DNA of 64,000 nucleotides from Alphaproteobacteria bacterium (lineage in GTDB: Bacteria; Pseudomonadota; Alphaproteobacteria; CADEGL01). The stretch covers positions 928 through 64,927 of the forward strand of contig JAPLOM010000026.1 in assembly GCA_026400755.1 (NCBI GenBank). The letters run 5' to 3'. Below are positions 813-41,076 of this stretch, in pieces; position 1 is the first letter of the stretch; each line of letters opens with the position of its first letter. The position numbers and the translations under genes were made by a program. The notes beneath the pieces were generated by a model that saw nothing but the letters and a program-made list of their open reading frames with translations, had not been told where the DNA came from and ran no database searches.

Positions 813-3125
813 ATGCCGCGCGTCGCCAGCATTTCGCAACAGATCTGGGACATGAAATACCGCCTGAAAGGGGCGGACGGCGCGCCTGTGGACAAAACCA
901 TTGAGGAATCCTGGCGCCGCGTCGCCGACGCCCTGGCCGCGCCGGAGGCAGATGCCGCCGCCTGGTCGGATCGTTTCTACACCGCGCTCGACGATTTCCG
1001 CTTCCTGCCCGCGGGCCGCATCCTGGCCGGCAGTGGCACCAAACGGCAGGTCACGCTGTTCAACTGCTTCGTCATGGGCCAGATCCCCGACCACATGGAA
1101 GGGATCTTCGAGAATTTGAAGGAAGCCGCCCTGACCATGCAGCAGGGCGGCGGCATCGGTTACGACTTCTCGACGCTGCGCCCCAAGGGCGCGCCGGTGA
1201 AAGGCGTGGGCGCCGACGCCTCGGGCCCACTGTCTTTCATGGATGTGTGGGATTCCATGTGCCGCACGATCATGAGCGCGGGCTATCGCCGCGGCGCCAT
1301 GATGGCGACCTTGCGCTGCGATCATCCGGACATCGAGGCCTTCATCGACGCCAAGCGCGAGCCCGGCCGCCTGCGCATGTTCAATCTGTCCGTCCTGATC
1401 ACCGACCCGTTCATGCAGGCGGTGAAGGAGGACGCGCCGTGGGAGCTGAGCTTCAGCGGGACGTGCTTCAAGGTCCTGCGCGCGCGCGAGTTGTGGGACA
1501 AGATCATGCGCGCGACCTATGCCTATGCCGAGCCGGGCGTGATCTTCATCGACCGCATCAACCGGCGGAACAACCTCCATTATTGCGAGACCATCCACGC
1601 CACCAACCCATGCGGCGAGCAGCCCTTGCCGCCGTATGGCGCGTGCCTCTTGGGCTCGATCAATCTCGCGCGCCTGGTGAAGGACCCGTTCGGCGACACG
1701 GCCGCGCTCGACATGGACGAGCTACAGCGCCTGGTGCCGCTGGCCGTGCGGATGATGGACAACACCATCGACGTCTCGAACTTCCCCCTGCCCCAGCAGG
1801 CGCACGAGGCGCGCGCCAAGCGCCGCATCGGCCTGGGTGTCACGGGCTTGGCCGATGCGCTGATCATGTGCCGCGCGCGCTATGGCAGCGAAAGCGCCGT
1901 GCGCCTGACGCACACCTGGATGGCCGCCTTCCGCCGCGCGGCCTATCTGGCGTCGGTCGAACTGGCCAAGGAAAAGGGCGCATTTCCCCTGTTCGAGCGC
2001 GACAAGTATCTGGCGGGCGAGACGATCGAGGAGATCGACCTGGACGTGCGCGAAGCCATCGCCGCGCACGGCATCCGCAACGCCCTCGTCACGTCCATCG
2101 CGCCGACCGGCACCATCTCGCTGTTCGCCGACAACGTCTCCTCGGGCATCGAGCCCGTGTTCAGCTATGCCTACACGCGCAACGTTCTGATGCCCGATGG
2201 CACGCGGCGCGAGGAAGAGGTCAGCGACTTCACCTATCGCCTCTACCGGCGCATGCATGGCGAGGCAGCCCCCCTGCCCGACTATTTCGTCGACGCCCAG
2301 ACGCTGGCGCCCCAGGACCATGTCGTCATGCAGGCGGCCGTGCAGGGCTATATCGACAGCTCGATCTCGAAGACCATTAACTGCCCGGCGGACATCACCT
2401 TCGAGCAATTCAAGGACGTCTATCTCTCGGCCTATGACCTGGGCTGCAAGGGCTGCACGACCTATCGGCCCAACGACGTCACGGGCGCCGTGCTGGAGGT
2501 GAAGAAACCGGCCGAACCCGCGCGGGAGCCGGAGCTGCCGTTGGAAAAGCCGGTCGCGCGCCCGGCGGACATCTACGAAGCCGGCGGCATCGTCTATATG
2601 ACGCGCCCCTTGGACCGGCCCGAGGCGCTGCCCGGAAACACCTACAAGATCCGCTGGACGGACACGGATCACGCCATCTACATCACGCTGAACGACATCG
2701 TGCAGGATGGCCGCCGGCGTCCCTTCGAGGTCTTCATCAACTCGAAGAGCATGGAGCACTATGCCTGGACGGTCGCGCTCACGCGTATGATCAGCGCGGT
2801 GTTCCGGCGCGGCGGCGACGTCTCCTTCGTGGTCGACGAGCTGAAGGCCGTGTTCGATCCGCGCGGCGGCCAATGGTCCGACGGCCGCTACATTCCCTCG
2901 CTCCTGGCCGCGATCGGCGGGGTGATCGAGAAGCACATGATCGAGATCGGCTTCCTGCCGCGTACGGGCGATCCGGATGCGTCGATCACCGACCGCAAGG
3001 TCGTAGGCCTGGAAGATGGCGCGCGCCACCAGTTGCGTCAGTGCCCGCGCTGCAGCCAGCCCAGCATGATCCGTCAGGAAAATTGCGACGTCTGTACGTC
3101 CTGCGGCCACTCCAAATGCGCGTGA
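813..3125 (+). CDS. nrdJ: adenosylcobalamin-dependent ribonucleoside-diphosphate reductase (class II RNR)
   Basis: 770-aa product with class II RNR hallmarks (SISQQIWDMKYRLK N-terminus, NPCGEQPLP catalytic region, C-terminal CxxC...C tail); start chosen at MPRVASISQQ with GGAAG upstream. The ORF track opens earlier at 660. Confidence 0.9.
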   Translation: MPRVASISQQIWDMKYRLKGADGAPVDKTIEESWRRVADALAAPEADAAAWSDRFYTALDDFRFLPAGRILAGSGTKRQVTLFNCFVMGQIPDHMEGIFENLKEAALTMQQGGGIGYDFSTLRPKGAPVKGVGADASGPLSFMDVWDSMCRTIMSAGYRRGAMMATLRCDHPDIEAFIDAKREPGRLRMFNLSVLITDPFMQAVKEDAPWELSFSGTCFKVLRARELWDKIMRATYAYAEPGVIFIDRINRRNNLHYCETIHATNPCGEQPLPPYGACLLGSINLARLVKDPFGDTAALDMDELQRLVPLAVRMMDNTIDVSNFPLPQQAHEARAKRRIGLGVTGLADALIMCRARYGSESAVRLTHTWMAAFRRAAYLASVELAKEKGAFPLFERDKYLAGETIEEIDLDVREAIAAHGIRNALVTSIAPTGTISLFADNVSSGIEPVFSYAYTRNVLMPDGTRREEEVSDFTYRLYRRMHGEAAPLPDYFVDAQTLAPQDHVVMQAAVQGYIDSSISKTINCPADITFEQFKDVYLSAYDLGCKGCTTYRPNDVTGAVLEVKKPAEPAREPELPLEKPVARPADIYEAGGIVYMTRPLDRPEALPGNTYKIRWTDTDHAIYITLNDIVQDGRRRPFEVFINSKSMEHYAWTVALTRMISAVFRRGGDVSFVVDELKAVFDPRGGQWSDGRYIPSLLAAIGGVIEKHMIEIGFLPRTGDPDASITDRKVVGLEDGARHQLRQCPRCSQPSMIRQENCDVCTSCGHSKCA

Positions 3126-3137
3126 GCGCGCGGCCGA

Positions 3138-3686
3138 TCAGCCGTTAAAGCCCTCGGCGGCCAGGCGGCGGACGATCTCGCACAGGAGTTTCAGGCTGGG
3201 CTCGTCGACGCCCAACTCCTCCAGGTGCTTCACCGTGTTCTCCAGGTAATCCCGGTTGGGCCCACGCTGGCCCAAACCGCGGCAGATCAACGCCGCCGTT
3301 TCTTCCGGCGTCAACTCGCCCGCGTATTCGGGATGGGTCGAATCGGCGACATAAGTCTGCGCCTCGACATACTGCGAGCCGACCTTCACCCGCAGCTTCT
3401 TCGGCGTATAGACATAGGTGGTCATCTCGCGATCGGTCAGATAGTCAAGCGCGGCTGGCACATCGCCCGCCGCGACGCGAAATGCCATGCCAAGGCAGTG
3501 TCCACCGGGTCGCAGCCCCAGCACAAGCCCGGGCTTCTCCTTGGTGCCGCGATACTGGTGGGAAAAGATGCAGAAAGCGCGGTGATAGCCTTCGAGCAGG
3601 GCGGGCACGGCCTCCTCGTGGCGGAAGCTCGGATCCCACATCAGGGAGCCGTAGCCGAAGACCCAGATATCGCCATTCGTGGTCAT
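3138..3686 (-). CDS. chaC: ChaC-family gamma-glutamylcyclotransferase
   Basis: FGYGSLMW motif and overall ChaC/GGCT fold signature in 182-aa product. Confidence 0.85.
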   Translation of the reverse strand: MTTNGDIWVFGYGSLMWDPSFRHEEAVPALLEGYHRAFCIFSHQYRGTKEKPGLVLGLRPGGHCLGMAFRVAAGDVPAALDYLTDREMTTYVYTPKKLRVKVGSQYVEAQTYVADSTHPEYAGELTPEETAALICRGLGQRGPNRDYLENTVKHLEELGVDEPSLKLLCEIVRRLAAEGFNG

Positions 3687-18529: not shown

Positions 18530-20800
18530 TTATAATCTCGCGTGCTTGAGTCGCATGGCGTTGGCGATGACGGAAACCGAACTGAGCGCCATGGCGGCGG
18601 CTGCCACCATCGGATTCAAGAGAACCCCAAAGACGGGGAAGAGAATACCTGCCGCCACAGGCACACCCGCCGCGTTGTAAGCAAAGGCGAAGAACAAATT
18701 TTGCCGGATGTTGCGCATCGTCACCACCGACAACGCACGCGCGCGAACCAGTCCTGCCAGATCGCCCTTCACCAGTGTGACGCCCGCGCTTTGGATCGCG
18801 ACGTCCGTGCCTGTTCCCATGGCGACGCCGACATCCGCCGCGGCCAGGGCTGGTGCGTCGTTGACGCCGTCGCCGGCCATCGCGACCACCCGTCCTTCGG
18901 CGCGCAAGCGGCGGACAATATCGCCTTTCCGTTCGGGCAGAACGTCGGCCTCGACTTCTTCGATATCCAGCGACTTGGCGACCGCCTCGGCCGTGATCCT
19001 ATTGTCCCCCGTCAGCATCACGATACGCAGGCCCGCGCGCCGCAACGCGTCCAGGGCCGCCGGCGTCGAGGCCTTGATCGGGTCCGCGATGGCGATCAGG
19101 CCGACCGGCCGCGCACCTTCGGCCAGAAGCACGACCGTCGCGCCGTCATGGCGCAGCACGTCGGCGCGCGCGGACAGGGCCGCATCATCCACGCCCAGGT
19201 CAGCCATCAGCGCGGCGTTGCCCAAGGCCACGCGCACGCCGGAAATCGTTCCCGTCACGCCCTTGCCCACGACAGCCTCGAACGCCTGCACGGCCGGTAT
19301 GTCGAGCTTGCTTTCGCCCGCGGCGGCGAGGATCGCGGAGGCTAGCGGATGCTCGCTTCCCTTCTCCAGCGCGGCGGCCAGGCGCAGCACATCCGTCTCG
19401 TCGCGGCCGTGCGCCGGCACGACTTCCGTCACGCGCGGCTTCCCTTCCGTCAGCGTGCCGGTCTTGTCGATGACGACGGTGTCGACCTTCTCGAACCGCT
19501 CCAGCGCTTCCGCGTCGCGAATTAGGATGCCGAGGGACGCGCCGCGACCGACGCCAACCATGATCGACATGGGCGTAGCCAAGCCGAGCGCGCACGGACA
19601 AGCGATGATCAGCACCGACACCGCGGCGGCCAGGCCGTAGGCCAGGCTGGGGCTCGGCCCGAACGCCGCCCAAACGACAAAGGCCACGACCGCCACGGCG
19701 ATGACGGCGGGCACGAACCAGGACGAGACGCGATCGGCCAGGCGCTGGATCGGCGCGCGGCTGCGTTGGGCGTCGGCCACCATCTGGACGATGCGCGCCA
19801 ACATCGTCTCGGCGCCCACCTTCTGCGCCCGTATGACCAGTGTGCCGCGCCCGTTGAGCGTGCCGCCGATCACGGTGTCCCCGACGCCCTTCTCGACAGG
19901 CATGGCCTCGCCGGTGACCATCGATTCATCGACGCCGCTGCGCCCTTCGATCACGACGCCATCGACCGGCACGCGCTCGCCGGGACGGATGCGCAGGATA
20001 TCGCCTAGCTGCACCTCATCGAGCGGCACGTCATCGTCGCCATGGGCGCCGACGCGCCGGGCGGTCTTGGGTGCCAGGTCGAGCAGCGCGCGGATCGCAT
20101 CGCCCGTGCGTGCGCGCGCACGCAGCTCCAGCACCTGGCCCAACAGGACCAGAACGACGATCACGGACGCGGCCTCGAAATAGACGGCAACGCTTCCGTC
20201 CGCGGCGCGAAACCCGGCCGGAAACAGGCCAGGCGCCAGGACGGCCGCCGCGCTGTACAGAAAGGCCGCGCCCGTGCCGATGGCGATCAAGGTGAACATG
20301 TTGAGGTTGCCCGTGCGCAGCGAGGCCCATCCGCGCGCGAAGAACGGAAAGCCAGCCCAAAGCACGACGGGAATGGCGAAGACGAACTGGAGCCACACCG
20401 ACAGAACGTGCGGCACGAGATCGTGCAGGCCCAGCGCCGGAATGTGCCCGCCCATCTCCAGCACGACGACCGGCAGCGCCAATGCGCCGCCGATCCAGAA
20501 GCGCCGCGTCATGTCGGCCAGCTCAGGATTGGGCGCTTCGTCGCGCGAAGGTGCTGCGGGCTCGAGCGCCATGCCGCAGATCGGACACGCCCCAGGCCCT
20601 TTCTGCCGAACCTCCGGATGCATAGGGCAAGTGTAGATTGCATCGGCCGCGCCCGTAGGCAGCGGTGCGAGCGGCTTCAGATACTTCGCGGGGTCGACCG
20701 TCATGCCGCACACCGGATCTTTAACGGCCGCGCCATGCCCGCAATAGGACCCGTGCGTGGAACCGTCGTGGGAATGCCCGTGATGGGAATGATCCGTCAT
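18530..20800 (-). CDS. copA: copper-translocating P1B-type ATPase
   Basis: CPC transmembrane motif ([13 protein letters not shown]), DKTGTLT phosphorylation site, GDGVNDAP hinge; His-rich N-terminus with two CGM (TRASH/YHS-like) metal-binding motifs. Confidence 0.9.
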
Positions 20801-30240: not shown

Positions 30241-30629
30241 GCCTGCCAGTCCCATAAGCGAAGAACAGGGCGCGGAGGATAGCGGCGGGGGTGATGCTTA
30301 GGCGGAGACCTGGTCAGAAACGTCTATGGCGGGCAACTGCGCGGTATCGTGCTAATCGAACTTGGTACTAAAATGACGCTCTGAGCGACGGTAACGTCAC
30401 TGGACCTTCGTCCTAGAAGTTACCCTTGAAACAGCCTGACTAAGCTTTCAGTAAAATTTTCTAGTTACTTTGGATATTACAGAATGCCGCCGCTGCCCCT
30501 TTACCCGTCTATTGAAAACACGGATGCCGCGAACACCGCTGGCGTAAAGCCATTTTTGAGGTGGGCCGGAAGTAAACGCAAACAACTATCCAGACTTCGC
30601 CGTTTCGTCTGAGAATCTCAGGAACATTC

Positions 30630-32252
30630 ATGAATCGCTACGACTACATCATCGTCGGCGCAGGCACGGCGGGGTGCGTGATCGCGTCGCGTCTGTCGGA
30701 GGACCCGAAGCTGCGCGTGCTGCTGATCGAGGCGGGGCAGCGGGACACGCATTGGTCGATCCGCATCCCCTCGGCGATCGGGCGCAATTATAAGAGCGGC
30801 CCGTTCAACTGGGGGTTCTGGAGCACGCCGCAGAAGCACCTGAACGACCGCGTCATCGTGCAGGCGCGCGGGCGCGTGTTGGGCGGCTCGTCCTCGGTCA
30901 ACGGCATGGTTTACCTGCGCGCCCACGCGCTGGATTTCGAACGCTGGGTCGAGGAAGGCGCCGCGGGCTGGTCGTATGCCGACGTGCTGCCCTATTTCCG
31001 GCACATGGAGCGGTTCACGGGCGGCGCCAGCGAATACCGCGGCGACAGCGGCCCAGTCACGGTGCGCAAGGGCGTGCCCAGCCATCCCGTCAACCAGGCC
31101 TTCCTGCGCGCGGGCGAACAGGCGGGATACGGCTTGACCGACGACGTGAACGGCTTCCGCCGCGACGGGTTCGGAAGCTGGGACATGAACATCGACCAGG
31201 GCGTGCGCGCCAGCTCGGCCTATTCCTATTTGCGCCATGTGCAGCGCGACAATTTGACGGTCCTGACCGAAGCCTTCGCGACACGCATCCTGTTCGACGG
31301 CGACCGCGCCGTGGCGGTGGAATGCCGGCACGGCGGCCAGGTGCATCGCATCGAGGCCGAGCGCGAAATCGTGCTGAGCGCGGGCAGCATCAAGTCGCCG
31401 CATCTGTTGATGCTGTCGGGCATCGGGCCGGCCGACCACCTGCGCGGCCACGGCATCGGCGTGCAGGTGGATGCGCCGGACGTGGGGCAGAATTTGCAGG
31501 ATCACGTCTACCTGTTCCTGCAATACGAATCGAAGCAGGCCATCTGCCTCAACCCCCACGCGCATGGCTGGCGCATGGCGGTGGCGGGCGCGCGCTGGTT
31601 CGCGAACCGCACGGGCCCGGCCGCGAGCAACAATATCGAGGTGGGCGCCTTCTATCGCAGCCGGGCGGATGTGACGCATCCGGACGCGCAGCTTCATTTC
31701 CGGCCGATCCTCTTGGACCCCGACACGTGGGCGCCGTCGCGAAGCCACGGCTATAATTTCAGCCTGGGGCCGAAGCGCCTGACCAGCCGGGGCACGCTGT
31801 CGCTGGCCAGCGCCGATCCCGAAGCCTCTCCGGTCATCGACCCCAACCATCTGGCGACCGAGCAGGATCGCGCGGATTTCCGCCTGCAGTTCCGCCAGAC
31901 GCGCGAGATCGGGATGCAGAAGGCCTTCGATCCCTTCCGCGGGCGCGAGGTGGGGCCGGGCGCCACGGCGCAAACGGACGCCGAGATCGACGCCTATGTG
32001 CGCGCCTACGGCCATAGCTCGTGGCACAACACCAGTTCTTGCCGCATGGGCAGCGACGCGCGCGCGGTGGTGTCGCCGGACCTGAAGGTGCGCGGCGTGC
32101 GCGGGCTTCGCGTGGCCGACACCTCCGTCATGCCCAGCATGATCAGCGCCAACACCAACTGCACCGCCTTCATGCTGGGCGAAAAGGCCGCCGACCATAT
32201 TCGCGGCGGCCCGATGCTGGCGCCGATGAATTTGCCGTTTTGGCGGGGGTGA
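30630..32252 (+). CDS. GMC-family FAD oxidoreductase (choline dehydrogenase-like), copy 1
   Basis: YDYIIVGAGTAGCV FAD motif, GMC signatures, 540 aa. Confidence 0.9.
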   Translation: MNRYDYIIVGAGTAGCVIASRLSEDPKLRVLLIEAGQRDTHWSIRIPSAIGRNYKSGPFNWGFWSTPQKHLNDRVIVQARGRVLGGSSSVNGMVYLRAHALDFERWVEEGAAGWSYADVLPYFRHMERFTGGASEYRGDSGPVTVRKGVPSHPVNQAFLRAGEQAGYGLTDDVNGFRRDGFGSWDMNIDQGVRASSAYSYLRHVQRDNLTVLTEAFATRILFDGDRAVAVECRHGGQVHRIEAEREIVLSAGSIKSPHLLMLSGIGPADHLRGHGIGVQVDAPDVGQNLQDHVYLFLQYESKQAICLNPHAHGWRMAVAGARWFANRTGPAASNNIEVGAFYRSRADVTHPDAQLHFRPILLDPDTWAPSRSHGYNFSLGPKRLTSRGTLSLASADPEASPVIDPNHLATEQDRADFRLQFRQTREIGMQKAFDPFRGREVGPGATAQTDAEIDAYVRAYGHSSWHNTSSCRMGSDARAVVSPDLKVRGVRGLRVADTSVMPSMISANTNCTAFMLGEKAADHIRGGPMLAPMNLPFWRG

Positions 32253-32257
32253 CAACG

Positions 32258-32815
32258 ATGCAGGGCAGCACAGTTATCGAGTGGGTGCTGGTCGGATTGC
32301 TCGGCTACTGGCTGGCCAGGCGGAATTTCAAAAAATACCGCGCGAGCTCAACCCGCACTGATGGGACGTTGAAGGAATTGGTCCGATGGTATTTCTGGCC
32401 CGACATCCGAAACGAAACCGAGGCGCGTAAAGAGTTTGAATCCGTTCGCTCAATTTCGGGCGTCTTCGCGATCATTATGCTGTTGGCCCCAGTCATTATC
32501 CTTGGCTTGAAAGAAGGGTTCTCGCCCAGAGTGCTCGATTCGCATTCGATTTTTTCGCGGTTTGGGGAGTTCTTCTTGGTGTCCTTGGCATTCGCGACGA
32601 TCTGGTATTTCGCGAGACGCGGACGTCAGTGGGTACTTTTCGCGAGCGCTTTGGGTCTCGCCGGTTTCTCAGTGTTTGTCCTCTTGTTTAGTGCCCTCTA
32701 TGAGGGCCACATCGCTCCTTTGGCACCCCTCATTTTCTCTCGATTCTCACTGCGGGGGTTTACAAGTTTCGAGCCTGGATGTGGTTTCGCGATCACCCCG
32801 AAAGCACCCTCGTAA
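32258..32815 (+). CDS. hypothetical membrane protein in low-GC segment
   Basis: 185-aa ORF with 4-5 hydrophobic helices; ~52% GC versus ~68% background; starts 5 nt after GMC stop. Confidence 0.45.
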   Translation: MQGSTVIEWVLVGLLGYWLARRNFKKYRASSTRTDGTLKELVRWYFWPDIRNETEARKEFESVRSISGVFAIIMLLAPVIILGLKEGFSPRVLDSHSIFSRFGEFFLVSLAFATIWYFARRGRQWVLFASALGLAGFSVFVLLFSALYEGHIAPLAPLIFSRFSLRGFTSFEPGCGFAITPKAPS

Positions 32816-33336: not shown

Positions 33337-34428
33337 ATGCATTTCGGCTATTTCAATCTGATGCAGACCCGCGACCCCGCCAAGCCGCCCAAGGCCGCGT
33401 TCCAGGAGACGTTGGCCCAGGTGAAGCAGGCCGAGGAGATCGGCTTCGAAATGGCGTGGTTCGCCGAGCATCATTTCTCGACCTACAGCGTCTGCGCCTC
33501 GCCCATGGTGGCGGCGGCCTGGATCGCGGGCCAGACCAAGAAGATCAAGCTGGCGCCCGGCGTGCTGCTCCTCCCCCTCTACGATCCCGTCCGGCTGATC
33601 CAGGAGATCGGCATGGTCGACCTGATGAGCGACGGGCGCTTCGTGCTGGGCATCGGCACGGGCTACCAGCCCTACGAGTTCGAACGCTTCAACGTGAACC
33701 TGAAGGAAGGCGGCGACCGCTTCGTCGAGTTCCTCGACATGATGGAACACGCCCTGACCGAAGGGCACTTCAGCTATAAGGGCAAGTACTACACCTATCC
33801 CGACACGCGCATCGCGACCTTGCCCGAGCGGCGCCTGCCCGAGGTGTATGTGGCCGGCGTCTTGAACCACCCCGTCATCCGCAAGCACATCGCCGAGCGC
33901 GGCTATGTGCCGCTGTTGGCCCCGGCCTGGAACCCGATCGGTTTGGTCGAGAAGCAGCTGGAGGGCTATCACGAGGTGGCGCGCGGCGTGGGCGTTTCTC
34001 CGGACAAGTTCCCCTTTTCGGTGATGCGCTTCATCCATGTGACCGACAGCCGCCAGGACGCGCTGGCCGCGGCGGAGAATTTCCGCTTCTCCACCCGCGC
34101 CGCCGTGGCCCTGCGCAACAACTACGGCGAGTTCGACGGCGTCACGCCGCGCGATATCGCGGCCAAGGACGAACCGGCCCTGGAGCAGATCGTCGACAAC
34201 TGCATCATCGGCGATCCGCATCTGTGCGCGGAGAAGATCGTGGCCGAGGCCAAGAAGCTGAACCCGATCCATTTCGCGTGCTTCATGCAGGCCGGCTTCA
34301 CCACCCACGCGCAGGCAAGCCGCAGCCTGGAACGCTTCGGCGCCGAGGTGCTGCCGCTGGTGAAGAAGGCCCTGCCCAACCTGGACAAGATCGGCGCGCC
34401 GCCGGGCCCGCTGCGCGCCGGGTCATAA
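33337..34428 (+). CDS. LLM-class (luciferase-like) flavin-dependent monooxygenase/oxidoreductase
   Basis: Bac_luciferase TIM-barrel signature (MAWFAEHHFSTYSVCASP...GIGTGYQPYEFERF). Confidence 0.85.
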   Translation: MHFGYFNLMQTRDPAKPPKAAFQETLAQVKQAEEIGFEMAWFAEHHFSTYSVCASPMVAAAWIAGQTKKIKLAPGVLLLPLYDPVRLIQEIGMVDLMSDGRFVLGIGTGYQPYEFERFNVNLKEGGDRFVEFLDMMEHALTEGHFSYKGKYYTYPDTRIATLPERRLPEVYVAGVLNHPVIRKHIAERGYVPLLAPAWNPIGLVEKQLEGYHEVARGVGVSPDKFPFSVMRFIHVTDSRQDALAAAENFRFSTRAAVALRNNYGEFDGVTPRDIAAKDEPALEQIVDNCIIGDPHLCAEKIVAEAKKLNPIHFACFMQAGFTTHAQASRSLERFGAEVLPLVKKALPNLDKIGAPPGPLRAGS

Positions 34429-34434
34429 GGCGTG

Positions 34435-34560
34435 TAGGTCTCCCCTCCCCAACGAGGGAGGGGCAAGGGGGAGGGGGTTAACGAGAGTCTTCTCCCCCCC
34501 ACCCAATCGCTCCGCTCGCACCCTCTCCCTCGCTGGGGAGAGGGTCGTTAAGGTGCTCTC
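34435..34560. repeat. REP-like GC-rich palindromic repeat element (copy B)
   Basis: TCTCCCCTCCCC...GGGGAGAGGG imperfect palindromes; related to 28126-28262. Confidence 0.5.
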
Positions 34561-34588
34561 CACTTCGCGCGCACGTCCCGGGGGAATC

Positions 34589-36214
34589 ATGAATCGCTAC
34601 GACTATGTCATCGTCGGCGCCGGCACGGCGGGCTGCGTCATCGCCGCGCGGCTGTCGGAAGATCCCACGCTGCGCGTGCTTCTGATCGAGGCGGGTCAGC
34701 GGGACACGCACTGGTCGATCCGCATCCCGTCCGCCATCGGCCGCAACTATCAGAGCGGGCCGTTCAACTGGGGCTTCCTGTCGACGCCGCAGAAGCACCT
34801 GAACAACCGCGTGGTGGTGCAGGCGCGCGGCAAGGTGCTGGGCGGCTCGTCCTCGGTCAACGGCATGGTTTACTTGCGCGGCCATGCGCTCGATTTCGAA
34901 CGCTGGGTGCAAGAGGGCGCCGCGGGTTGGTCATACGCCGAGGTGCTGCCCTATTTCCGGCGCATGGAACGGTTCACGGGCGGCACAAGCGAGTATCGCG
35001 GCGACACGGGCCCGGTCGTCGTGCGCAAGGGCACGACCGATCATCCGATCAACGAAGCCTTTGTCCGCGCGGGCGACCAGGCCGGTCACGGGCTGACCGA
35101 CGACGTCAACGGCTTCCGCCAGGACGGCTTCGGAAGCTGGAACATGAACATCGACCAGGGCATGCGCGCGAGTTCGGCTCGCGCCTATCTGCGCGGCGCG
35201 GCCGAGCGCAGCAACTTGACCGTGCTGACCGAGGCCTTCGCGACGCAAGTTTTGTTCGACGGCGACCGGGCCACCTCCGTCGAATACCGGCATGGCGGCG
35301 CCCTCCATCGCGCGGAGGCCGAGCGCGAGATCGTGCTGAGCGCGGGCGGCATCAAATCGCCGCATCTTCTGATGCTGTCGGGCATCGGTCCGGCCGATCA
35401 TCTGCGCGAACACGGCATTGGCGTGCGCGTCGATGCGCCCGATGTGGGCCGGAACGTGCAGGATCACATGTACCTGATGCTGCAATACGAATCGAAGGAG
35501 AACATCTGCCTCAACCCACACGCGCGGGGCTGGCGCATGGTGATGGCGGGCGCGCGCTGGTTCGCGACGCGCTCGGGCCCCGCCGCCAGCAACCATATCG
35601 AGGTGGGCGCCTTCTTCCGCAGCAACGGGCAGGTGAGCCATCCCGACTCTCAGATTCATTTTCGGCCACTTCTGCTCGACCCCGTGACGTGGCTGCCGTC
35701 CAAGGTGCATGGCTACAATTTTGGCGTCGGCCCTCTGCGCCCCACCAGCATGGGCTCGGTCACCCTGGCCAGCGCCGATCCCTACGCCGACCCGATCGTC
35801 GATCCCAACCATCTCGGGACCGAGAAGGACCGCGCGGATTTCCGCACCCAGTTCAAGATGACACGCGAGGTGGGACAGCAGGCCGCGTTCGACCGCTTCC
35901 GCAAGCGCGAGGTGGGGCCCAGCACCGCGGCCCAGACGGATGCCGAGATCGACGCCTTCATCCGCGCCTATGCCCACAGCGCCTGGCACAATGTCGGCGC
36001 CTGCCGGATGGGCAGCGACGCACGCGCGGTGGTGTCGCCGGATTTGAAGGTGAACGGCGTGCGCGGTTTGCGCGTGGCCGACACCTCAGCCATGCCAAGC
36101 ATGATCAGCGCCAACACCAACTGCACCACGTTCATGCTGGGCGAGCGCGCCACCGACATCATCCGCGGCGGCCCCATGCTGGCGCCGTTGAACTTGCCGT
36201 TCTATCGGGGGTGA
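34589..36214 (+). CDS. GMC-family FAD oxidoreductase, copy 2 (paralog of 30630..32252)
   Basis: ~88% nucleotide identity over the 5' 400 bp to copy 1, estimated by eye; same motifs. Confidence 0.9.
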   Translation: MNRYDYVIVGAGTAGCVIAARLSEDPTLRVLLIEAGQRDTHWSIRIPSAIGRNYQSGPFNWGFLSTPQKHLNNRVVVQARGKVLGGSSSVNGMVYLRGHALDFERWVQEGAAGWSYAEVLPYFRRMERFTGGTSEYRGDTGPVVVRKGTTDHPINEAFVRAGDQAGHGLTDDVNGFRQDGFGSWNMNIDQGMRASSARAYLRGAAERSNLTVLTEAFATQVLFDGDRATSVEYRHGGALHRAEAEREIVLSAGGIKSPHLLMLSGIGPADHLREHGIGVRVDAPDVGRNVQDHMYLMLQYESKENICLNPHARGWRMVMAGARWFATRSGPAASNHIEVGAFFRSNGQVSHPDSQIHFRPLLLDPVTWLPSKVHGYNFGVGPLRPTSMGSVTLASADPYADPIVDPNHLGTEKDRADFRTQFKMTREVGQQAAFDRFRKREVGPSTAAQTDAEIDAFIRAYAHSAWHNVGACRMGSDARAVVSPDLKVNGVRGLRVADTSAMPSMISANTNCTTFMLGERATDIIRGGPMLAPLNLPFYRG

Positions 36215-36433
36215 AATCGAATATCGGCGCGCCCGCAAAGACTTACGGAACGATGTTCAAAACCTGCTGAAAATCTGGGTTTTTCGAAAAGGAAAACGTT
36301 CCGCCTCGCCTACGACTTTTTGCCCCCGTTTCGCCATCGTCCGGTCCTTCCTCCGCCCCCGTTGTTTGGGAACCTTCACAGGTACTGAGCCGTTTCTTCT
36401 CCGGGTAACACACGGCTCACAGGGAGAACCCAC

Positions 36434-36661
36434 ATGAACACACTCACCAAGTCTTTGCTGTTCGGAGCCAGCTTGCTCACCGTTTCCGGCGCGGCGTTCG
36501 CGGCCGACCAGAAGCCGCAGCGCACCTGGGTGCAGCCGCCGGCGTGGGTCATGCTGCTGGACCGCGGCGACCAGACGACCACCATCAGCCTCGACCGCAT
36601 GGCCTATGTGGAACAGGCGATCAATCCCGACCGCGAAGCCAACGTCGCGGAAGCGAAGTAG
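36434..36661 (+). CDS. small secreted protein (signal peptide, 75 aa)
   Basis: GGGAGA RBS; N-terminal signal peptide LLFGASLLTVSGAAFAADQ. Confidence 0.45.
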   Translation: MNTLTKSLLFGASLLTVSGAAFAADQKPQRTWVQPPAWVMLLDRGDQTTTISLDRMAYVEQAINPDREANVAEAK

Positions 36662-36681
36662 CGCGGTCATATCCACACCCG

Positions 36682-38103
36682 CTAGGTCCGCTTTTTCACG
36701 AATTCTTCCAGGATCGCCTTCCGGTCCGCGTCCAGATCGGGCGCGGGCCGGACTGTTTTCGGCTACGCCAAACCCACCACCTTGATCGGATTGCCCGCCA
36801 CCGGAATCGAGCCCGCCATGGGATCGTCCACGGTCACGATCATGTTCCGTGCGGCGACTTGCGGCTCCTTCATCATCGCGGCCACGTCGTTGACCGGCCC
36901 GCACGGCACCCCCGCCTCGGTCAGCACGGCAATCCAGTGCGCGGCCGTGGCGTCCGCCACCGCGGATTCTATCTCGGCCTCCAGCGCGTCCACGTTCCGG
37001 TGGCGCAGGGCGTTGGTGAGAAAGCGCGGATCCTGGGCCCACTCCGGACGGCCCAGCGCCTGGGCCATGCGCGCGAACAGCCGGTCATTGGCCGCGGCGA
37101 TCACCATCGGGCGGTCGGACGCCCGATAGGTCTGGAACGGCGCGATCGAGCCGTGGCGCGTGCCGTGGGGAACGGGCGCGTGGCCCGATTGGTGGCAGCG
37201 CACGATGGCATCTTCCAGAAGTGCCACCTGGCAATCCAGCATGGCGATGTCGAGCTTGCAGCCCTGGCCCGATTTTTCGCGGCGGTAAAGCGCCGCGTTC
37301 AGGCCGACGGCCAGATACAGGCCCGCGGCCAGGTCGCCGATCGACGCGCCGACGCGCACGGGCGGGCCGCCCTCGGGGCCGGTCAGGCTCATGATCCCGC
37401 CCATGCCCTGCACCACCATGTCGTAGGCCGCGCGCGCGTGGAACGAGGCCGGCGCGATGTCGCCATAGCCCGTCGTGGTCAGGGTGGTGAAGCTGAAATA
37501 AACGAATTCGTAATAGTGACCCTTGCGCTCGCCCACGATCGCGACGAAAGCGTCAGGCGTCGTCACGTCGATGAAGGCGTAGAACGCCGCCCATAGGATG
37601 CCGATCAGAAGATAGCCGCACACGGCGGCCGCGATCCGGTCCTCCGTCACGGGCCCGCGATGCAGCACATAGGCCAGCACGTTGCCGACCGTGAACACCA
37701 GCGCCAGCAGCACGCCGCACCCGGAGAGATAAAACAGCGATTCGTCACCCGAGGCAAAATAGAGGATCAGCAGCAGATAGGCCGGCGCCGCGAGCGCCAC
37801 GGCGATAACGCGCAGGAGCTTGGTGCGCGTCGCCGAGAAGACGCCCAGGACCAGGACCGCCAGGATGAAGCCGCTGAGCGCTTCCCGGCCGATGGCGGAG
37901 CCGACGAAGAAGGGGTAGCCCAGCAGGAATGCGACCAGCAGAATCAGAAGATAGTGATAGGGCGTGTGCGTGATATGGCTTTTGTGAAGCGCGCGAAGCC
38001 GTTTCATGGCCAGTGCCCCTTCGTCCCTGCCCCCAGCGACGCCTAACACGGTACGGCGCGCGCCCGCGGTCAGTTTAACGCGGAAACCGGACCGCGAGGC
38101 CAT
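36682..38103 (-). pseudogene. chimeric/disrupted ORF: K+-channel pore domain (truncated after TTGYGD) fused to the C-terminal half of a family-III CoA-transferase (CaiB/BaiF), which also carries an in-frame TAG
   Basis: Residues ~35-230 are 5 TM helices plus pore helix and selectivity filter (FSFTTLTTTGYGDIAP) with no inner helix after the filter. Residues ~235-446 match the CoA-transferase III C-terminal half (GIMSLTGPEGGPPVRVGASIGDLAAGLY...) with the N-terminal Rossmann half absent. TAG at 36763-36765 is followed in-frame by the conserved family tail (PKTVRPAPDLDADRKAILEEF) up to a second TAG at 36682. Confidence 0.55.
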
Positions 38104-38192
38104 GCCCGTCCTGTTCGGTATGCGATAGGGCGGCCTGGACCGGTCCGAGGGGCTTGGCTAGAACGGACGGGACCGTGGGGAGGGATGCCGCG

Positions 38193-39353
38193 ATGGGCCT
38201 GCCAACCGATCTGTTCGAGCCGAAATACTACGCCAATGTGCGGCGCCCCGTGGAGGACGCGGAGACGCTGCCGCCCTGGAGCTATGCGGGCAAGGAATTC
38301 TACGCCCGCGAGGTCGAGCGCATCTTCAACAAGACCTGGAATTTCGTCGGCCACGCCGGGCGTATCCCGAACGTGGGCGACTACGACGTGATCGACTATG
38401 CCGGCGCGTCCCTCATCCTGGTGCGCGACCGCGAGGGCCGCCCGCGCGCCTACGCCAATTCCTGCCGCCACCGCGGCGCCGCGATCGCCGAGGGCAGCGG
38501 CAATTGCCGCGCCTTCAAGTGCCCGTACCACCATTGGATTTACGGTCTGGACGGCACGCTGACCGGCGCGCCCGAGATGGAGCACACGCCGGGCTTCAAG
38601 AAATCCGACTACGGGCTGATCGAGGTGAAGCTGGAGCTTTTCGGGCAGCTGATGTTCGTCAACTTCGACCCCAACAGCATCCCGCTGGCCGAATATCTGG
38701 GCGACTTGCCGCAGTTGCTGGCGCCCTACGCGCTCGACCAGTTGAAGCTCGTGCGCCGCACGGAATACGACGTGGCCTGCAACTGGAAGGTCTATGTCGA
38801 GAACTTCATGGACTACTACCACACGCCAACGGTGCACCAGAAATCGCTCGCGTCGGGCAGCCTGTCCGTCTACCACCGCAACCCGCCGACGGCCGAGCGC
38901 GGCAAGGGCGAATACATGGCGCTCTACGCCAAGCACGAGGGCAGCGCCGCGTTGCTGCCGGGCGCCGAGGGTTTCCCGTCCATGCCGACGCTCACCGGCC
39001 GCGCCAAGGACGGCTCGACCTATGCCTGCGTCTTCCCCTGCACGCTCATGGCCCAGACCAAGGATTGCGTCTGGCATGTCGAAATCCATCCCTTAGGACC
39101 GGACAAGATCAGGCTGGCGATCGGCGCCTGCTTCCACCCCGAGACGATCGCGCGGCCCGATTTCGCCGAGACGCTGGAGAACTATTACAAACGCTGGGAC
39201 GTGAGCGTGATCGAAGACAACGAGATCAACGAAATCCAGCAGAAGGGCGTCACCTCCCCCTTGGCCAAGGCCGGCCGGGTTTCGAACTTCGAGGCCCTTT
39301 CCCACATCCACCGCAACTGGGTGCTGGACCGGGTGCTCGGCAACGCGGGCTGA
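38193..39353 (+). CDS. Rieske [2Fe-2S] non-heme iron oxygenase alpha subunit (CntA/GbcA-like)
   Basis: CRHRG-x17-CPYHHW Rieske motif and DYYH...H mononuclear Fe site. Confidence 0.85.
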   Translation: MGLPTDLFEPKYYANVRRPVEDAETLPPWSYAGKEFYAREVERIFNKTWNFVGHAGRIPNVGDYDVIDYAGASLILVRDREGRPRAYANSCRHRGAAIAEGSGNCRAFKCPYHHWIYGLDGTLTGAPEMEHTPGFKKSDYGLIEVKLELFGQLMFVNFDPNSIPLAEYLGDLPQLLAPYALDQLKLVRRTEYDVACNWKVYVENFMDYYHTPTVHQKSLASGSLSVYHRNPPTAERGKGEYMALYAKHEGSAALLPGAEGFPSMPTLTGRAKDGSTYACVFPCTLMAQTKDCVWHVEIHPLGPDKIRLAIGACFHPETIARPDFAETLENYYKRWDVSVIEDNEINEIQQKGVTSPLAKAGRVSNFEALSHIHRNWVLDRVLGNAG

Positions 39354-39466
39354 GGCCCCGGCCCATCCGGGCATGGCTGACATGAAATTCTTGCGTCAAC
39401 CGGCCCTTGGGCTGAGGCCTCCGGCGAACTAGTATTCTCGTAACCTGCAACGGACGAGGACGAGCC

Positions 39467-40252
39467 ATGGCCGCCGCACGCAAGACCAAGGGTAAGACGA
39501 ACGGCAAGAAGCCGAAGATGAGCCCGGAAGAGTGGCAGACGCGGGTCAATCTGGCCGCCTGCTATCGCCTGGTCGCGCTGAACGGCATGACCGACCTGGA
39601 CGCGACCCACATCTCGGCGCGCGCGCCCCACAACCCGGAGCATTTCTTCCTCAATCCCTTCGGCATGCTGTTCCATGAGATCACGGCGTCCTCGCTGGTG
39701 AAGCTCGATCTCGACGGCAACATCGTCGAGGAGAACGAGTACGGCCTGAACCCGGCGGGTGTGGTGATCCACAGCGCCGTCCTGCGTGGCCGGCCGGACG
39801 TGGCCAGCGTGGTGCACACCCACACGCGCGCGGGCATGGCCGTCTCGGCGCAGAAGGACGGGCTTCTGCCGCTGACGCAAACCTCGCTGCGCTTCTACGG
39901 CAAGCTGGCCTATCACGACTACGAGGGCATCGCGGAGCCCGGCGAGGAAGAGCGCCTGGTCGAGCATCTGAGCGACAAGCCCGCCATGATCCTGCGCAAT
40001 CACGGGCTCTTAGCCACCGGCCGTACGGTGCCCGAGGCATATCTGAACATCCACGAGCTGGAGCATGCCTGCCAGGCGCAGATCGACGCGCAGAGCGGCG
40101 GCAACGCGAATCTGCTGATCGTGCCCAAGGACGTGTGCGAGAGCACGGCCCAGCAATACATCCGCTTCACCGGCAACAAGATCCCCGGCGAGCGTGCCTG
40201 GCCCGCCCATCTGCGCACCCTCGACCGCGCCGATTCGTCCTACAAGACCTGA
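39467..40252 (+). CDS. class II aldolase/adducin-family protein, copy 1
   Basis: Aldolase_II fold with conserved His cluster (VVHTHT). Confidence 0.85.
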   Translation: MAAARKTKGKTNGKKPKMSPEEWQTRVNLAACYRLVALNGMTDLDATHISARAPHNPEHFFLNPFGMLFHEITASSLVKLDLDGNIVEENEYGLNPAGVVIHSAVLRGRPDVASVVHTHTRAGMAVSAQKDGLLPLTQTSLRFYGKLAYHDYEGIAEPGEEERLVEHLSDKPAMILRNHGLLATGRTVPEAYLNIHELEHACQAQIDAQSGGNANLLIVPKDVCESTAQQYIRFTGNKIPGERAWPAHLRTLDRADSSYKT

Positions 40253-40284
40253 GCGGCGGGAAACCCACCAACTCCGAGGCAATA

Positions 40285-41076
40285 ATGACGGCCAATCCCG
40301 CGAGCGTGAGCCGCAGCATGAAGCTGCGCGACAAGGTGAGCCCGGAAGAGTGGCAGGTGCGCGTGGATTTGGCGGCCTGCTATCGGCTGGTCGCCTATTA
40401 CGACATGACGGACCTGACCTTCACCCACATCTCGGCGCGCATCCCGGGCCAGCCGAACCATTTCCTGCTGAATCCATTCGGCATGATGTTCGAAGAGATC
40501 ACGGCCTCGTCCTTGGTGAAGACCCACATGGACGGCACCGTCGACAAGGAAAGCCCCTACGAGTACATCCCCGCCGGCTATACGATCCACAGCGCGGTGC
40601 TGGACGCGCGGCCGGACGTGCAATGCGTGCTGCACACCCACACGAGCGCGGGCATGGCCGTGTCGTCGCTGGAATGCGGCCTGATGCCGATGACGCAGAC
40701 CTCGCTGCGCTTTTACAACAACATCGCCTATCACGATTATGAGGGCGTGGCGCTGGACCATGATGAGCGCACGCGCCTGTCGCGCGACCTGGGCAAGCAG
40801 CAATCCATGATCCTGAAGAACCATGGCCTGCTCACCACTGGCCGCTCGATCGCCGAGGCCTTCGTGCTGATGCACCGGCTGGAGAAGGCTTGCAAAGCCC
40901 AGATCGAGGCGCTGTCCACCGGGCAGAAGCCGATCCAGCTGTCCGAAGACGTGAAAGAACACACGGCCAAGCAGTTCAACGGCATGGCCTTTTCCAACGG
41001 CCCGATCTACGGCGACCGCGAGTGGCCCTCCCTCTGCCGCATGATGGACCGCGTCGACCCCAGCTATAAGATGTGA
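40285..41076 (+). CDS. class II aldolase/adducin-family protein, copy 2
   Basis: ~55% identical to the upstream paralog (estimated by eye); VLHTHT motif. Confidence 0.85.
   Translation: MTANPASVSRSMKLRDKVSPEEWQVRVDLAACYRLVAYYDMTDLTFTHISARIPGQPNHFLLNPFGMMFEEITASSLVKTHMDGTVDKESPYEYIPAGYTIHSAVLDARPDVQCVLHTHTSAGMAVSSLECGLMPMTQTSLRFYNNIAYHDYEGVALDHDERTRLSRDLGKQQSMILKNHGLLTTGRSIAEAFVLMHRLEKACKAQIEALSTGQKPIQLSEDVKEHTAKQFNGMAFSNGPIYGDREWPSLCRMMDRVDPSYKM

What the first reader, a model, noticed from the sequence alone, without database searches (positions are those of the whole stretch)
36682..38103. Chimeric ORF joining a K+-channel pore (truncated after TTGYGD) to half a CoA-transferase, with a further in-frame TAG
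Seen directly in the sequence: one 446-codon frame encodes ~5 TM helices, a pore helix and a canonical potassium selectivity filter (FSFTTLTTTGYGDIAP). No inner (M2/S6) helix follows the filter, so a conducting channel cannot form. The frame then runs straight into the C-terminal ~210 residues of a CaiB/BaiF family-III CoA-transferase (GIMSLTGPEGGPPVRVG...IGDLAAGLY...), whose N-terminal Rossmann half (~180 aa) is absent. The ORF stops at TAG (36763-36765), yet the next 26 in-frame codons (PKTVRPAPDLDADRKAILEEF) still resemble the conserved C-terminus of this family (inference), so that TAG looks like a nonsense mutation. The simplest reading is a deletion that fused two adjacent same-strand genes and left a decaying relic. 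Less likely, a channel-domain/enzyme fusion is expressed.
Basis: partly seen in the sequence, partly recalled or inferred. Interest (0 to 1): 0.75.

Follow-up and report, generated by a model that had tools for sequence, protein, structure and literature searches.

The report
Deletion scar fusing two gene fragments
A roughly 16.5-kb deletion removed about 15 genes and joined the front of a potassium-channel gene, in frame, to the back of a CoA-transferase gene, leaving a real but almost certainly dead hybrid gene: an ordinary pseudogene, not a new kind of protein.

Summary
ORF 36763..38103 (-) joins residues 1-193 of a 227-aa six-helix K+ channel to residues 140-364 of a 390-aa family-III CoA-transferase. 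The channel part has five TM helices, the pore helix and the TTGYGD filter, but no inner helix. A TAG then replaces a conserved Glu codon, and 26 recognisable codons follow before the original stop.

One relative's contig (L087) carries both genes intact on the same strand, about 16 kb apart, with 15 genes between them. Its flanks match the window: a Rieske oxygenase on one side, a 75-aa gene and a GMC oxidoreductase on the other. The window lacks that 16.5-kb interval. The two homology blocks abut at 37433-37430 on a 4-5-nt GCGC(G) microhomology.

The junction and the TAG recur in four other assemblies at 99.87-100% identity, so this is not a misassembly. No other lineage has the fusion, in 5.8 billion proteins, 185,579 species genomes or the JGI metagenomes.

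dN/dS on the window's branch is not raised for the CoA-transferase part and only mildly for the channel part, so the deletion is recent.

Interest is low.

The parts
36763..38103 (-). Longest open frame of the chimeric gene (446 codons plus TAG)
   Evidence: The identical ORF occurs in four other assemblies.
38005..38007 (-). Probable true start codon (ATG of MKRLRALHK), giving a 414-aa product
   Evidence: All intact channel orthologues start MKRLR. GenBank protein MCX7354691.1 is 414 aa and starts here.
37434..38007 (-). Channel-derived part: five TM helices, pore helix and selectivity filter; residues 1-192 of a 226-227-aa channel
   Evidence: 87% identical to intact 226-227-aa channels P0121-P0123. 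blastn homology to L003 ends at window 37430. Hydropathy.
37459..37476 (-). Selectivity filter TTGYGD
   Evidence: Pfam Ion_trans_2.
37429..37433 (-). Deletion junction: GCGC (or GCGCG) microhomology shared by both parent genes. It lies in the Ala codon shared by channel A193 and CoA-transferase A140, so the frame is kept.
   Evidence: Three-way DNA alignment. The same comparison with further orthologues gives 4 nt against L003 and 5 nt against L091.
36766..37428 (-). CoA-transferase-derived part before the TAG (orthologue residues about 141-364). It includes the conserved VGASIGDLAAG segment at 37321-37353.
   Evidence: 81% identical to intact 390-aa P0002. Pfam CoA_transf_3 profile positions 118-348 of 366. 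Alignment of the orthologue to E. coli YfdE, 4hl6.
36763..36765 (-). Premature stop TAG replacing a conserved Glu codon
   Evidence: The orthologues have GAA, GAG and GAG in this column. The TAG is present in all assemblies of this lineage.
36682..36762 (-). Cut-off tail: 26 codons still aligned to the family C-terminus, plus the original stop codon (TAG, 36682-36684)
   Evidence: PKTVRPAPDLDADRKAILEEF aligns with PKTFRPAPALDADRNALLREF in the orthologues.
38154..39353 (+). Flank marker on the channel side: Rieske oxygenase, divergent from the channel gene in every relative
34553..36661 (+). Flank markers on the CoA-transferase side: GMC (choline-dehydrogenase-like) oxidoreductase at 34553-36214 and a 75-aa gene at 36434-36661, convergent with the CoA-transferase in relatives

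Best explanation
The ORF is the scar of one illegitimate-recombination deletion of about 16.5 kb. In the ancestor, a 227-aa six-helix K+ channel gene sat next to a divergent Rieske oxygenase gene. A 390-aa family-III CoA-transferase gene sat next to a 75-aa gene and a GMC oxidoreductase. The two genes lay on the same strand with about 15 genes between them, mostly amino-acid and amine catabolism genes. A break and rejoin at a 4-5-nt GCGC(G) microhomology removed three things: the last 34 codons of the channel (its inner, pore-lining helix), all the genes in between, and the first 139 codons of the CoA-transferase (its N-terminal CoA-binding part). Both breakpoints fell at the same codon phase by chance, so the frame stays open.

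The channel gene's start and upstream region are intact. The hybrid is therefore probably still transcribed and translated into a 414-aa protein. That protein can work neither as a channel nor as an enzyme.

A later or earlier G-to-T change turned a conserved Glu codon into TAG, cutting off the last 26 residues.

Shown here: the deletion, its ends, its size, the nonsense change, and the restriction to one near-clonal lineage. Inferred: the loss of function of both halves, the expression, the order of the deletion and the TAG, and the mechanism (replication slippage or microhomology-mediated end joining).
For: Both parent genes exist intact in relatives. The channels are 226-228 aa and up to 87-90% identical. 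The CoA-transferases are 387-390 aa and 74-81% identical.

One contig, L087, carries both on the same strand with 15 genes between them and the same outer flanks as the window. The window matches L087 up to position 3175 on one side and from 19708 on the other. The 16.5 kb between has no counterpart anywhere in the 64-kb window. A second relative, L003, overlaps L002 collinearly over 4 kb.

The junction was resolved to 37433-37430 with GCGC shared by both parents.

The same junction and TAG occur in assemblies from SRR20698643, ERZ28613056, ERZ27280213 and ERZ27280329 at 99.87-100% nucleotide identity. These were made by different assemblers.

The inner helix is absent. In the intact channel it aligns with the inner helix region of solved K+ channels: KvLm pore module 4h33, MlotiK1 and KcsA.

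The CoA-transferase part scores 203 bits against an NCBIfam equivalog cut-off of 522.

The TAG aligns with GAA/GAG in the orthologues.

Branch dN/dS is 0.21 for the CoA-transferase remnant against 0.25-0.27 in intact orthologues. It is 0.28 for the channel remnant against 0.08-0.13. Flanking genes are about 0.10. This fits a recent event.
Against: No read-level or long-read data were available. No complete genome of this lineage was available, so the 16.5-kb block could have moved elsewhere in the genome rather than been lost. It is not in the 64-kb window. The gene content next to the channel differs among relatives, so the exact ancestral interval is uncertain, at about 14-16 genes. The lack of raised dN/dS in the CoA-transferase part would also fit continued constraint. 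Loss of function is inferred from what is known of the two folds and was not measured.
Confidence: 0.9

Rival explanations
1. The hybrid is a working new protein. It could be a membrane-anchored CoA-transferase fragment, or a truncated channel subunit that regulates or poisons channel tetramers, kept by selection.
For: The frame is open over 414-446 codons, and the native start and upstream region are kept. dN/dS on the window's branch is not raised for the CoA-transferase part. The allele is the only one seen for this lineage, in five assemblies. GenBank annotates it as a protein.
Against: Both breakpoints cut inside folded domains, not at domain borders. After the filter the chain is on the outer side of the membrane, and there is no helix to bring the cytoplasmic enzyme fragment back inside (established K+ channel topology). 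The enzyme part lacks its first 139 residues and, because of the TAG, its last 26. No other lineage has this architecture among 5.8 billion proteins, 185,579 species genomes or the JGI metagenomes. The five assemblies are 99.87-100% identical, so their agreement says nothing about selection. The low dN/dS is what a recent event would give.
Confidence: 0.04
2. The junction is an assembly or binning artefact that joined two unrelated contigs.
For: All the sequences come from short-read metagenome assemblies. One unrelated MAG contig (L008) happens to begin 7 nt before the equivalent point.
Against: The identical junction was assembled independently from at least four other runs or samples, by MEGAHIT-style, Logan and scaffold-style pipelines. 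The overlap is only 4-5 nt, far below any assembler's k-mer. Both flanks continue collinearly with the relatives.
Confidence: 0.02
3. The fused state is ancestral, and the relatives gained a 16.5-kb insertion that split one gene into two.
For: None beyond formal possibility.
Against: In the relatives each gene is complete. The extra parts are homologous to the corresponding parts of widespread families. The N-terminal 139 residues of the CoA-transferase align with E. coli YfdE. The channel C-terminus aligns with the inner helix of solved K+ channels. Separate genes are the rule in hundreds of genomes.
Confidence: 0.01

Closest known systems
Chimeric (fusion) pseudogenes left by microhomology-mediated deletions in bacterial genomes
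   Same: Both parents are truncated. The flanks are collinear with relatives. The intervening genes are missing. The junction microhomology is very short (4-5 nt). There is an additional nonsense mutation.
   Different: Here the frame happens to be preserved, which gives a long ORF with two Pfam domains. An automatic pipeline named it 'CoA transferase'.
E. coli YfdE, acetyl-CoA:oxalate CoA-transferase (PDB 4hl6), and the CaiB/BaiF family III CoA-transferases
   Same: The intact orthologue P0002 aligns end to end with YfdE (E 4e-104). The window keeps the segment equivalent to YfdE residues about 160-380. That segment includes the VRVG.S..DL..G stretch, which by my own knowledge of the family holds the catalytic Asp.
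   Different: The first 139 residues are missing and the last 26 are cut off by the TAG. The remnant scores 203 bits against the 522-bit cut-off of the CoA:oxalate CoA-transferase equivalog. The substrate of the intact orthologues is unknown.
Prokaryotic six-helix and two-helix K+ channels (KvLm pore module 4h33, MlotiK1 2zd9, KcsA 1k4c); Pfam Ion_trans_2
   Same: The outer helix, pore helix and TTGYGD filter are present. The intact orthologue aligns through the whole pore module of the solved channels.
   Different: The inner (M2/S6) helix is deleted. The parent family itself is an uncharacterised 227-aa group with four extra N-terminal helices and no evident sensor or ligand domain.

Membership tests
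Tetrameric K+ channel (Pfam Ion_trans_2) | Outer helix, pore helix and a T-x-G-Y-G-D selectivity filter | tested here: met
   Ion_trans_2 profile positions 9-63 of 79, E 1.7e-7, 31.5 bits against a 22.5-bit cut-off. TTGYGD at residues 210-215.
Tetrameric K+ channel (Pfam Ion_trans_2) | Inner (M2/S6) helix after the filter, which lines the cavity and returns the chain to the cytoplasm | tested here: not met
   Channel homology ends 9 residues after the filter, at window 37430. The sixth hydrophobic segment (residues 193-218 of the intact P0363) is absent. In the intact protein that segment aligns with the inner helix region of 4h33.
Family III CoA-transferase (Pfam CoA_transf_3, CaiB/BaiF) | N-terminal part of the large domain (profile positions 1-117; orthologue residues 1-139) | tested here: not met
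   The Pfam match starts at profile position 118. Homology to P0002/L002 starts at codon 140. No match to the missing part anywhere in the window.
Family III CoA-transferase (Pfam CoA_transf_3, CaiB/BaiF) | Conserved Asp-containing active-site segment and small domain | tested here: met
   VGASIGDLAAG at residues 251-261 corresponds to VRVGTSLADLCGG of YfdE, through the alignment of the orthologue. Its role as catalytic Asp is from my own knowledge of the family and was not tested.
Family III CoA-transferase (Pfam CoA_transf_3, CaiB/BaiF) | Complete C-terminal segment, and a full-length score above an NCBIfam equivalog cut-off | tested here: not met
   The TAG removes the last 26 residues. The best NCBIfam score is 202.9 bits against a 522-bit cut-off.
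Deletion-derived fusion pseudogene | Both parents intact and separate in relatives; collinear flanks; intervening DNA absent; a sharp junction | tested here: met
Deletion-derived fusion pseudogene | Signs of lost constraint: premature stop, raised dN/dS | tested here: inconclusive
   One nonsense codon. Branch dN/dS is raised for the channel part (0.28 against about 0.10; 98% of bootstraps above zero) but not for the CoA-transferase part (0.21 against about 0.26). This fits a recent event.
Deletion-derived fusion pseudogene | No functional product | not testable with these tools
   Needs expression and activity data.

The most novel reading that the evidence does not exclude
The in-frame hybrid is expressed from the channel promoter as a stable 414-aa membrane protein with an effect of its own. 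For example, it could act as a dominant-negative subunit that co-assembles with another K+ channel. It could also be a young de novo fusion gene caught at birth and kept because it is useful.
Probability: 0.04. Interest if true: 0.5.

Novelty: new member of a known kind. Interest (0 to 1): 0.2.

Why it matters
There are three modest reasons.

First, annotation. The public record names this protein 'CoA transferase' (MCX7354691.1, 414 aa). Domain-based surveys would count it as a channel-enzyme fusion. It should be flagged as a pseudogene.

Second, it is a clean, fully resolved example of genome reduction in an uncultured freshwater or environmental alphaproteobacterium. Both endpoints are mapped to the base, the microhomology is 4-5 nt, about 15 catabolic genes were lost in one step, and the event is recent enough that the remnants still look like genes.

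Third, it shows that the two-domain architecture is not a biological innovation.

Tried and rejected
- Whole chimeric protein as a query against the GTDB species genomes. CoA-transferase paralogues filled the 80 rows and no channel locus was returned. Its only use was to show that no genome matches the query beyond residues 184-446.
- Direct look-up of the AsnC regulator of L002.
- Look-up of the 414-aa GenBank form. It is not on record.
- AsnC homologue search. It gave no long contigs by itself, but its cluster member P0368, found, gave the decisive single contig.
- Exact and degenerate junction patterns in the JGI metagenomes. No matches.
- Promoter and terminator scan of 36300-38400. No sigma-70-like site. 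One terminator-like hairpin, no more than chance would give.
- tRNA and Rfam scans of the window. Nothing found.
- Repeat search over 34000-41000. No IS element or long repeat at the junction, so recombination between repeats or mobile elements is not the cause.
- TAG recoding was considered. TAG also closes other long frames in the window and is the CoA-transferase gene's own stop, so there is no reason to invoke it.
- Structure prediction was not run, because it would not decide function.

Full report
**Observation**

The minus strand of 36763..38103 holds a 446-codon open frame (sequence). Pfam finds two domains in it:
- Ion_trans_2 at residues 171-237 (E 1.7e-7, above the gathering score).
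- CoA_transf_3 at residues 209-442, covering only profile positions 118-348 of 366 (E 7e-64).

NCBIfam gives CoA:oxalate CoA-transferase as the best model, at 203 bits. This is far below its 522-bit cut-off, as expected for a fragment. The filter motif FSFTTLTTTGYGDIAP is at residues 203-218, window 37450-37497.

**The two parents**

A search of 5.8 billion proteins with the whole ORF returned one cluster that has both domains, which is the ORF itself. After it came hundreds of ordinary 380-400-aa CoA-transferases that match only residues 192-446. The closest of these are 74-81% identical and 387-390 aa long.

A search with the N-terminal 193 residues returned 226-228-aa proteins, up to 87% identical, that carry Ion_trans_2 alone. 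A 90%-identical one, P0363, sits in the same 90% cluster as the ORF. All of them start MKRLR, so the likely start in the window is the ATG at 38005-38007.

After ...GYGDIAPxSFHARA the orthologues continue with LANAEQLIGIFYIALLIARLTGLYQS.... Hydropathy shows this is a sixth transmembrane segment, which the window protein lacks. In the intact protein it aligns with the inner-helix region of solved K+ channels: KvLm 4h33, MlotiK1 and KcsA.

The intact CoA-transferase aligns end to end with E. coli YfdE (4hl6, E 4e-104).

**The junction**

blastn of relatives against the window gives two homology blocks:
- Channel homology (L003) runs down to window 37430.
- CoA-transferase homology (L002) starts at window 37433.

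A three-way alignment shows:
- Channel: ...CACGCGCGCGC|CTTGG.
- CoA-transferase: ...CAATGCGC|GGCCTAC.
- Window: ...CACGCGCGCGCGGCCTAC.

The shared stretch is GCGC, or GCGCG against the closest channel, L091. The junction lies in an Ala codon shared by channel codon 193 and CoA-transferase codon 140, so the frame is preserved. No IS element or long repeat lies nearby.

**What was between the two genes**

L003 shows the order aldolases, Rieske, then the channel, followed by Usp, NhaA, an aminotransferase, a DoeA-like hydrolase, an aldehyde dehydrogenase, methylaspartate ammonia-lyase, GYD, AsnC and ABM. L002 shows aldehyde dehydrogenase through ABM, then OYE, DAO, a 2-hydroxyacid dehydrogenase and a 182-aa gene, and then the CoA-transferase, the 75-aa gene and GMC. 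The two overlap collinearly over 4 kb at 86% identity.

The decisive locus is L087, a single contig of MAG GCA_050180485.1. Its gene order is:
- GMC oxidoreductase, the 75-aa gene, then the CoA-transferase (2421-3593).
- Fifteen genes.
- The channel (19603-20286), then the Rieske oxygenase.

Both genes of interest are on the same strand. The window matches L087 up to position 3175 and again from 19708. The 16.5 kb between has no counterpart in the 64-kb window apart from weak paralogue hits.

NCBIfam names several of the missing genes above their cut-offs: methylaspartate ammonia-lyase, adenosine deaminase, a PRK07482 aminotransferase and a PRK07079 M20 peptidase. The others are a DoeA-like hydrolase, an aldehyde dehydrogenase, an FMN/FAD OYE-type oxidoreductase, a pipecolate-oxidase-like flavoprotein and a 2-hydroxyacid dehydrogenase. 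This is a mixed amine and amino-acid catabolic block.

'Same-strand genes fused by a deletion' is right.

**The TAG**

The orthologues read GL[E/P/A]EPKTFRPAPALDADR...EF. The window reads GLA*PKTVRPAPDLDADRKAILEEF. At the DNA level the window has TAG where the orthologues have GAA, GAG and GAG. This is a single G-to-T nonsense change. The original stop, also TAG, follows 26 codons later at 36682-36684.

**Is it real?**

The window's exact ORF (P0362) occurs on contigs from SRR20698643, ERZ28613056 and ERZ27280213, at 100%, 100% and 99.95% nucleotide identity. A one-residue variant (A70T, P0001) occurs on a 5.5-kb contig from ERZ27280329, at 99.87%. GenBank holds it as MCX7354691.1, 'CoA transferase', 414 aa, on an 88-kb MAG contig.

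Independent assemblies would not create the same 4-5-nt join, so misassembly is excluded. These copies are nearly clonal, however, so their agreement carries no information on selection.

**Is it conserved elsewhere?**

It is not. No other protein has both domains. No species-representative genome matches the query beyond residues 184-446. The junction is absent from 241 million JGI metagenome records, both as exact DNA and as any coding of FHARAAYDMVVQG.

**Age and constraint**

I ran a three-taxon Nei-Gojobori branch decomposition. dN/dS values were:

| Gene | Window branch | Intact orthologues |
|---|---|---|
| CoA-transferase remnant | 0.21 | 0.25-0.27 |
| Channel remnant | 0.28 (98% of bootstraps above the others) | 0.08-0.13 |
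| Flanking Rieske and GMC genes | about 0.10 | about 0.10 |

I infer that the deletion is recent. One stop codon in about 250 codons fits a short neutral period.

**Mechanism and function (inference from established knowledge)**

A K+ channel pore needs the inner helix to line the cavity and to bring the chain back to the cytoplasm. Without it the tetrameric pore cannot form. The attached soluble enzyme fragment would also be left on the wrong side of the membrane.

Family III CoA-transferases are interlocked dimers, and their large domain is built from both the N-terminal and the C-terminal segments. Here the first 139 residues are gone and the last 26 are cut off. No activity is expected, even though the conserved Asp-containing segment is kept.

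The channel's upstream region is intact, so the hybrid is probably still transcribed and translated and then degraded. No consensus promoter was found. This means little in a 65% G+C alphaproteobacterium.

**Verdict**

This is an ordinary, recent, deletion-derived fusion pseudogene. It is well resolved and is misannotated in the public record. The deletion origin has a confidence of about 0.9. A functional fusion has about 0.04.

Noticed in passing
window 30627-32259 and 34553-36214: Two GMC (choline-dehydrogenase-like) oxidoreductase paralogues about 81% identical at the DNA level. Both copies are also present in relative L002, so the duplication is old.
   Followed up: partly
window 39515-39814 and 40333-40632: Tandem class II aldolase paralogues (300-nt core 72% identical). 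The same pair is present in L003.
   Followed up: no
L008 1-20 (MAG contig CAYZFH010000413.1): A 2.1-kb contig of a different species (79% identical to the window) begins only 7 nt upstream of the point equivalent to the window's deletion junction, with the intact CoA-transferase sequence. This is probably coincidence, but a contig break there could reflect a similar structural polymorphism in that sample.
   Followed up: partly
window 36720-36752 (+): A terminator-like hairpin (14 pairs, then CTGTTTTCGG) on the plus strand, inside the cut-off tail of the CoA-transferase and about 60 nt downstream of the convergent 75-aa gene. The count is no higher than in shuffled sequence.
   Followed up: no
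L003 10668-13039; L087 18590-19606; L091 5316-6011; L094 4027-4422; L095 7234-7961: Gene content right next to both parent genes varies among close relatives. Beside the channel there is Usp plus NhaA, or adenosine deaminase, or nothing. Beside the CoA-transferase there is a Csp gene or a HicAB toxin-antitoxin pair. The region seems prone to gene gain and loss.
   Followed up: no
window 36434-36661 (+): The 75-aa gene, which has no family match and a hydrophobic N-terminus that looks like a signal peptide, shows a much longer window branch (dS 0.81, dN 0.10) than its neighbours (dS about 0.2-0.3). It has only 74 codons, so this is noisy.
   Followed up: no
P0142 (865-nt NCBI contig): A 203-aa predicted protein in which the C-terminal ~110 residues of this channel family follow an unrelated N-terminus. 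This is probably a gene-calling or assembly artefact on a tiny contig.
   Followed up: no
GenBank MCX7354691.1 (= window 36763-38007, -): The public annotation calls the hybrid 'CoA transferase' and does not flag it as a pseudogene.
   Followed up: yes
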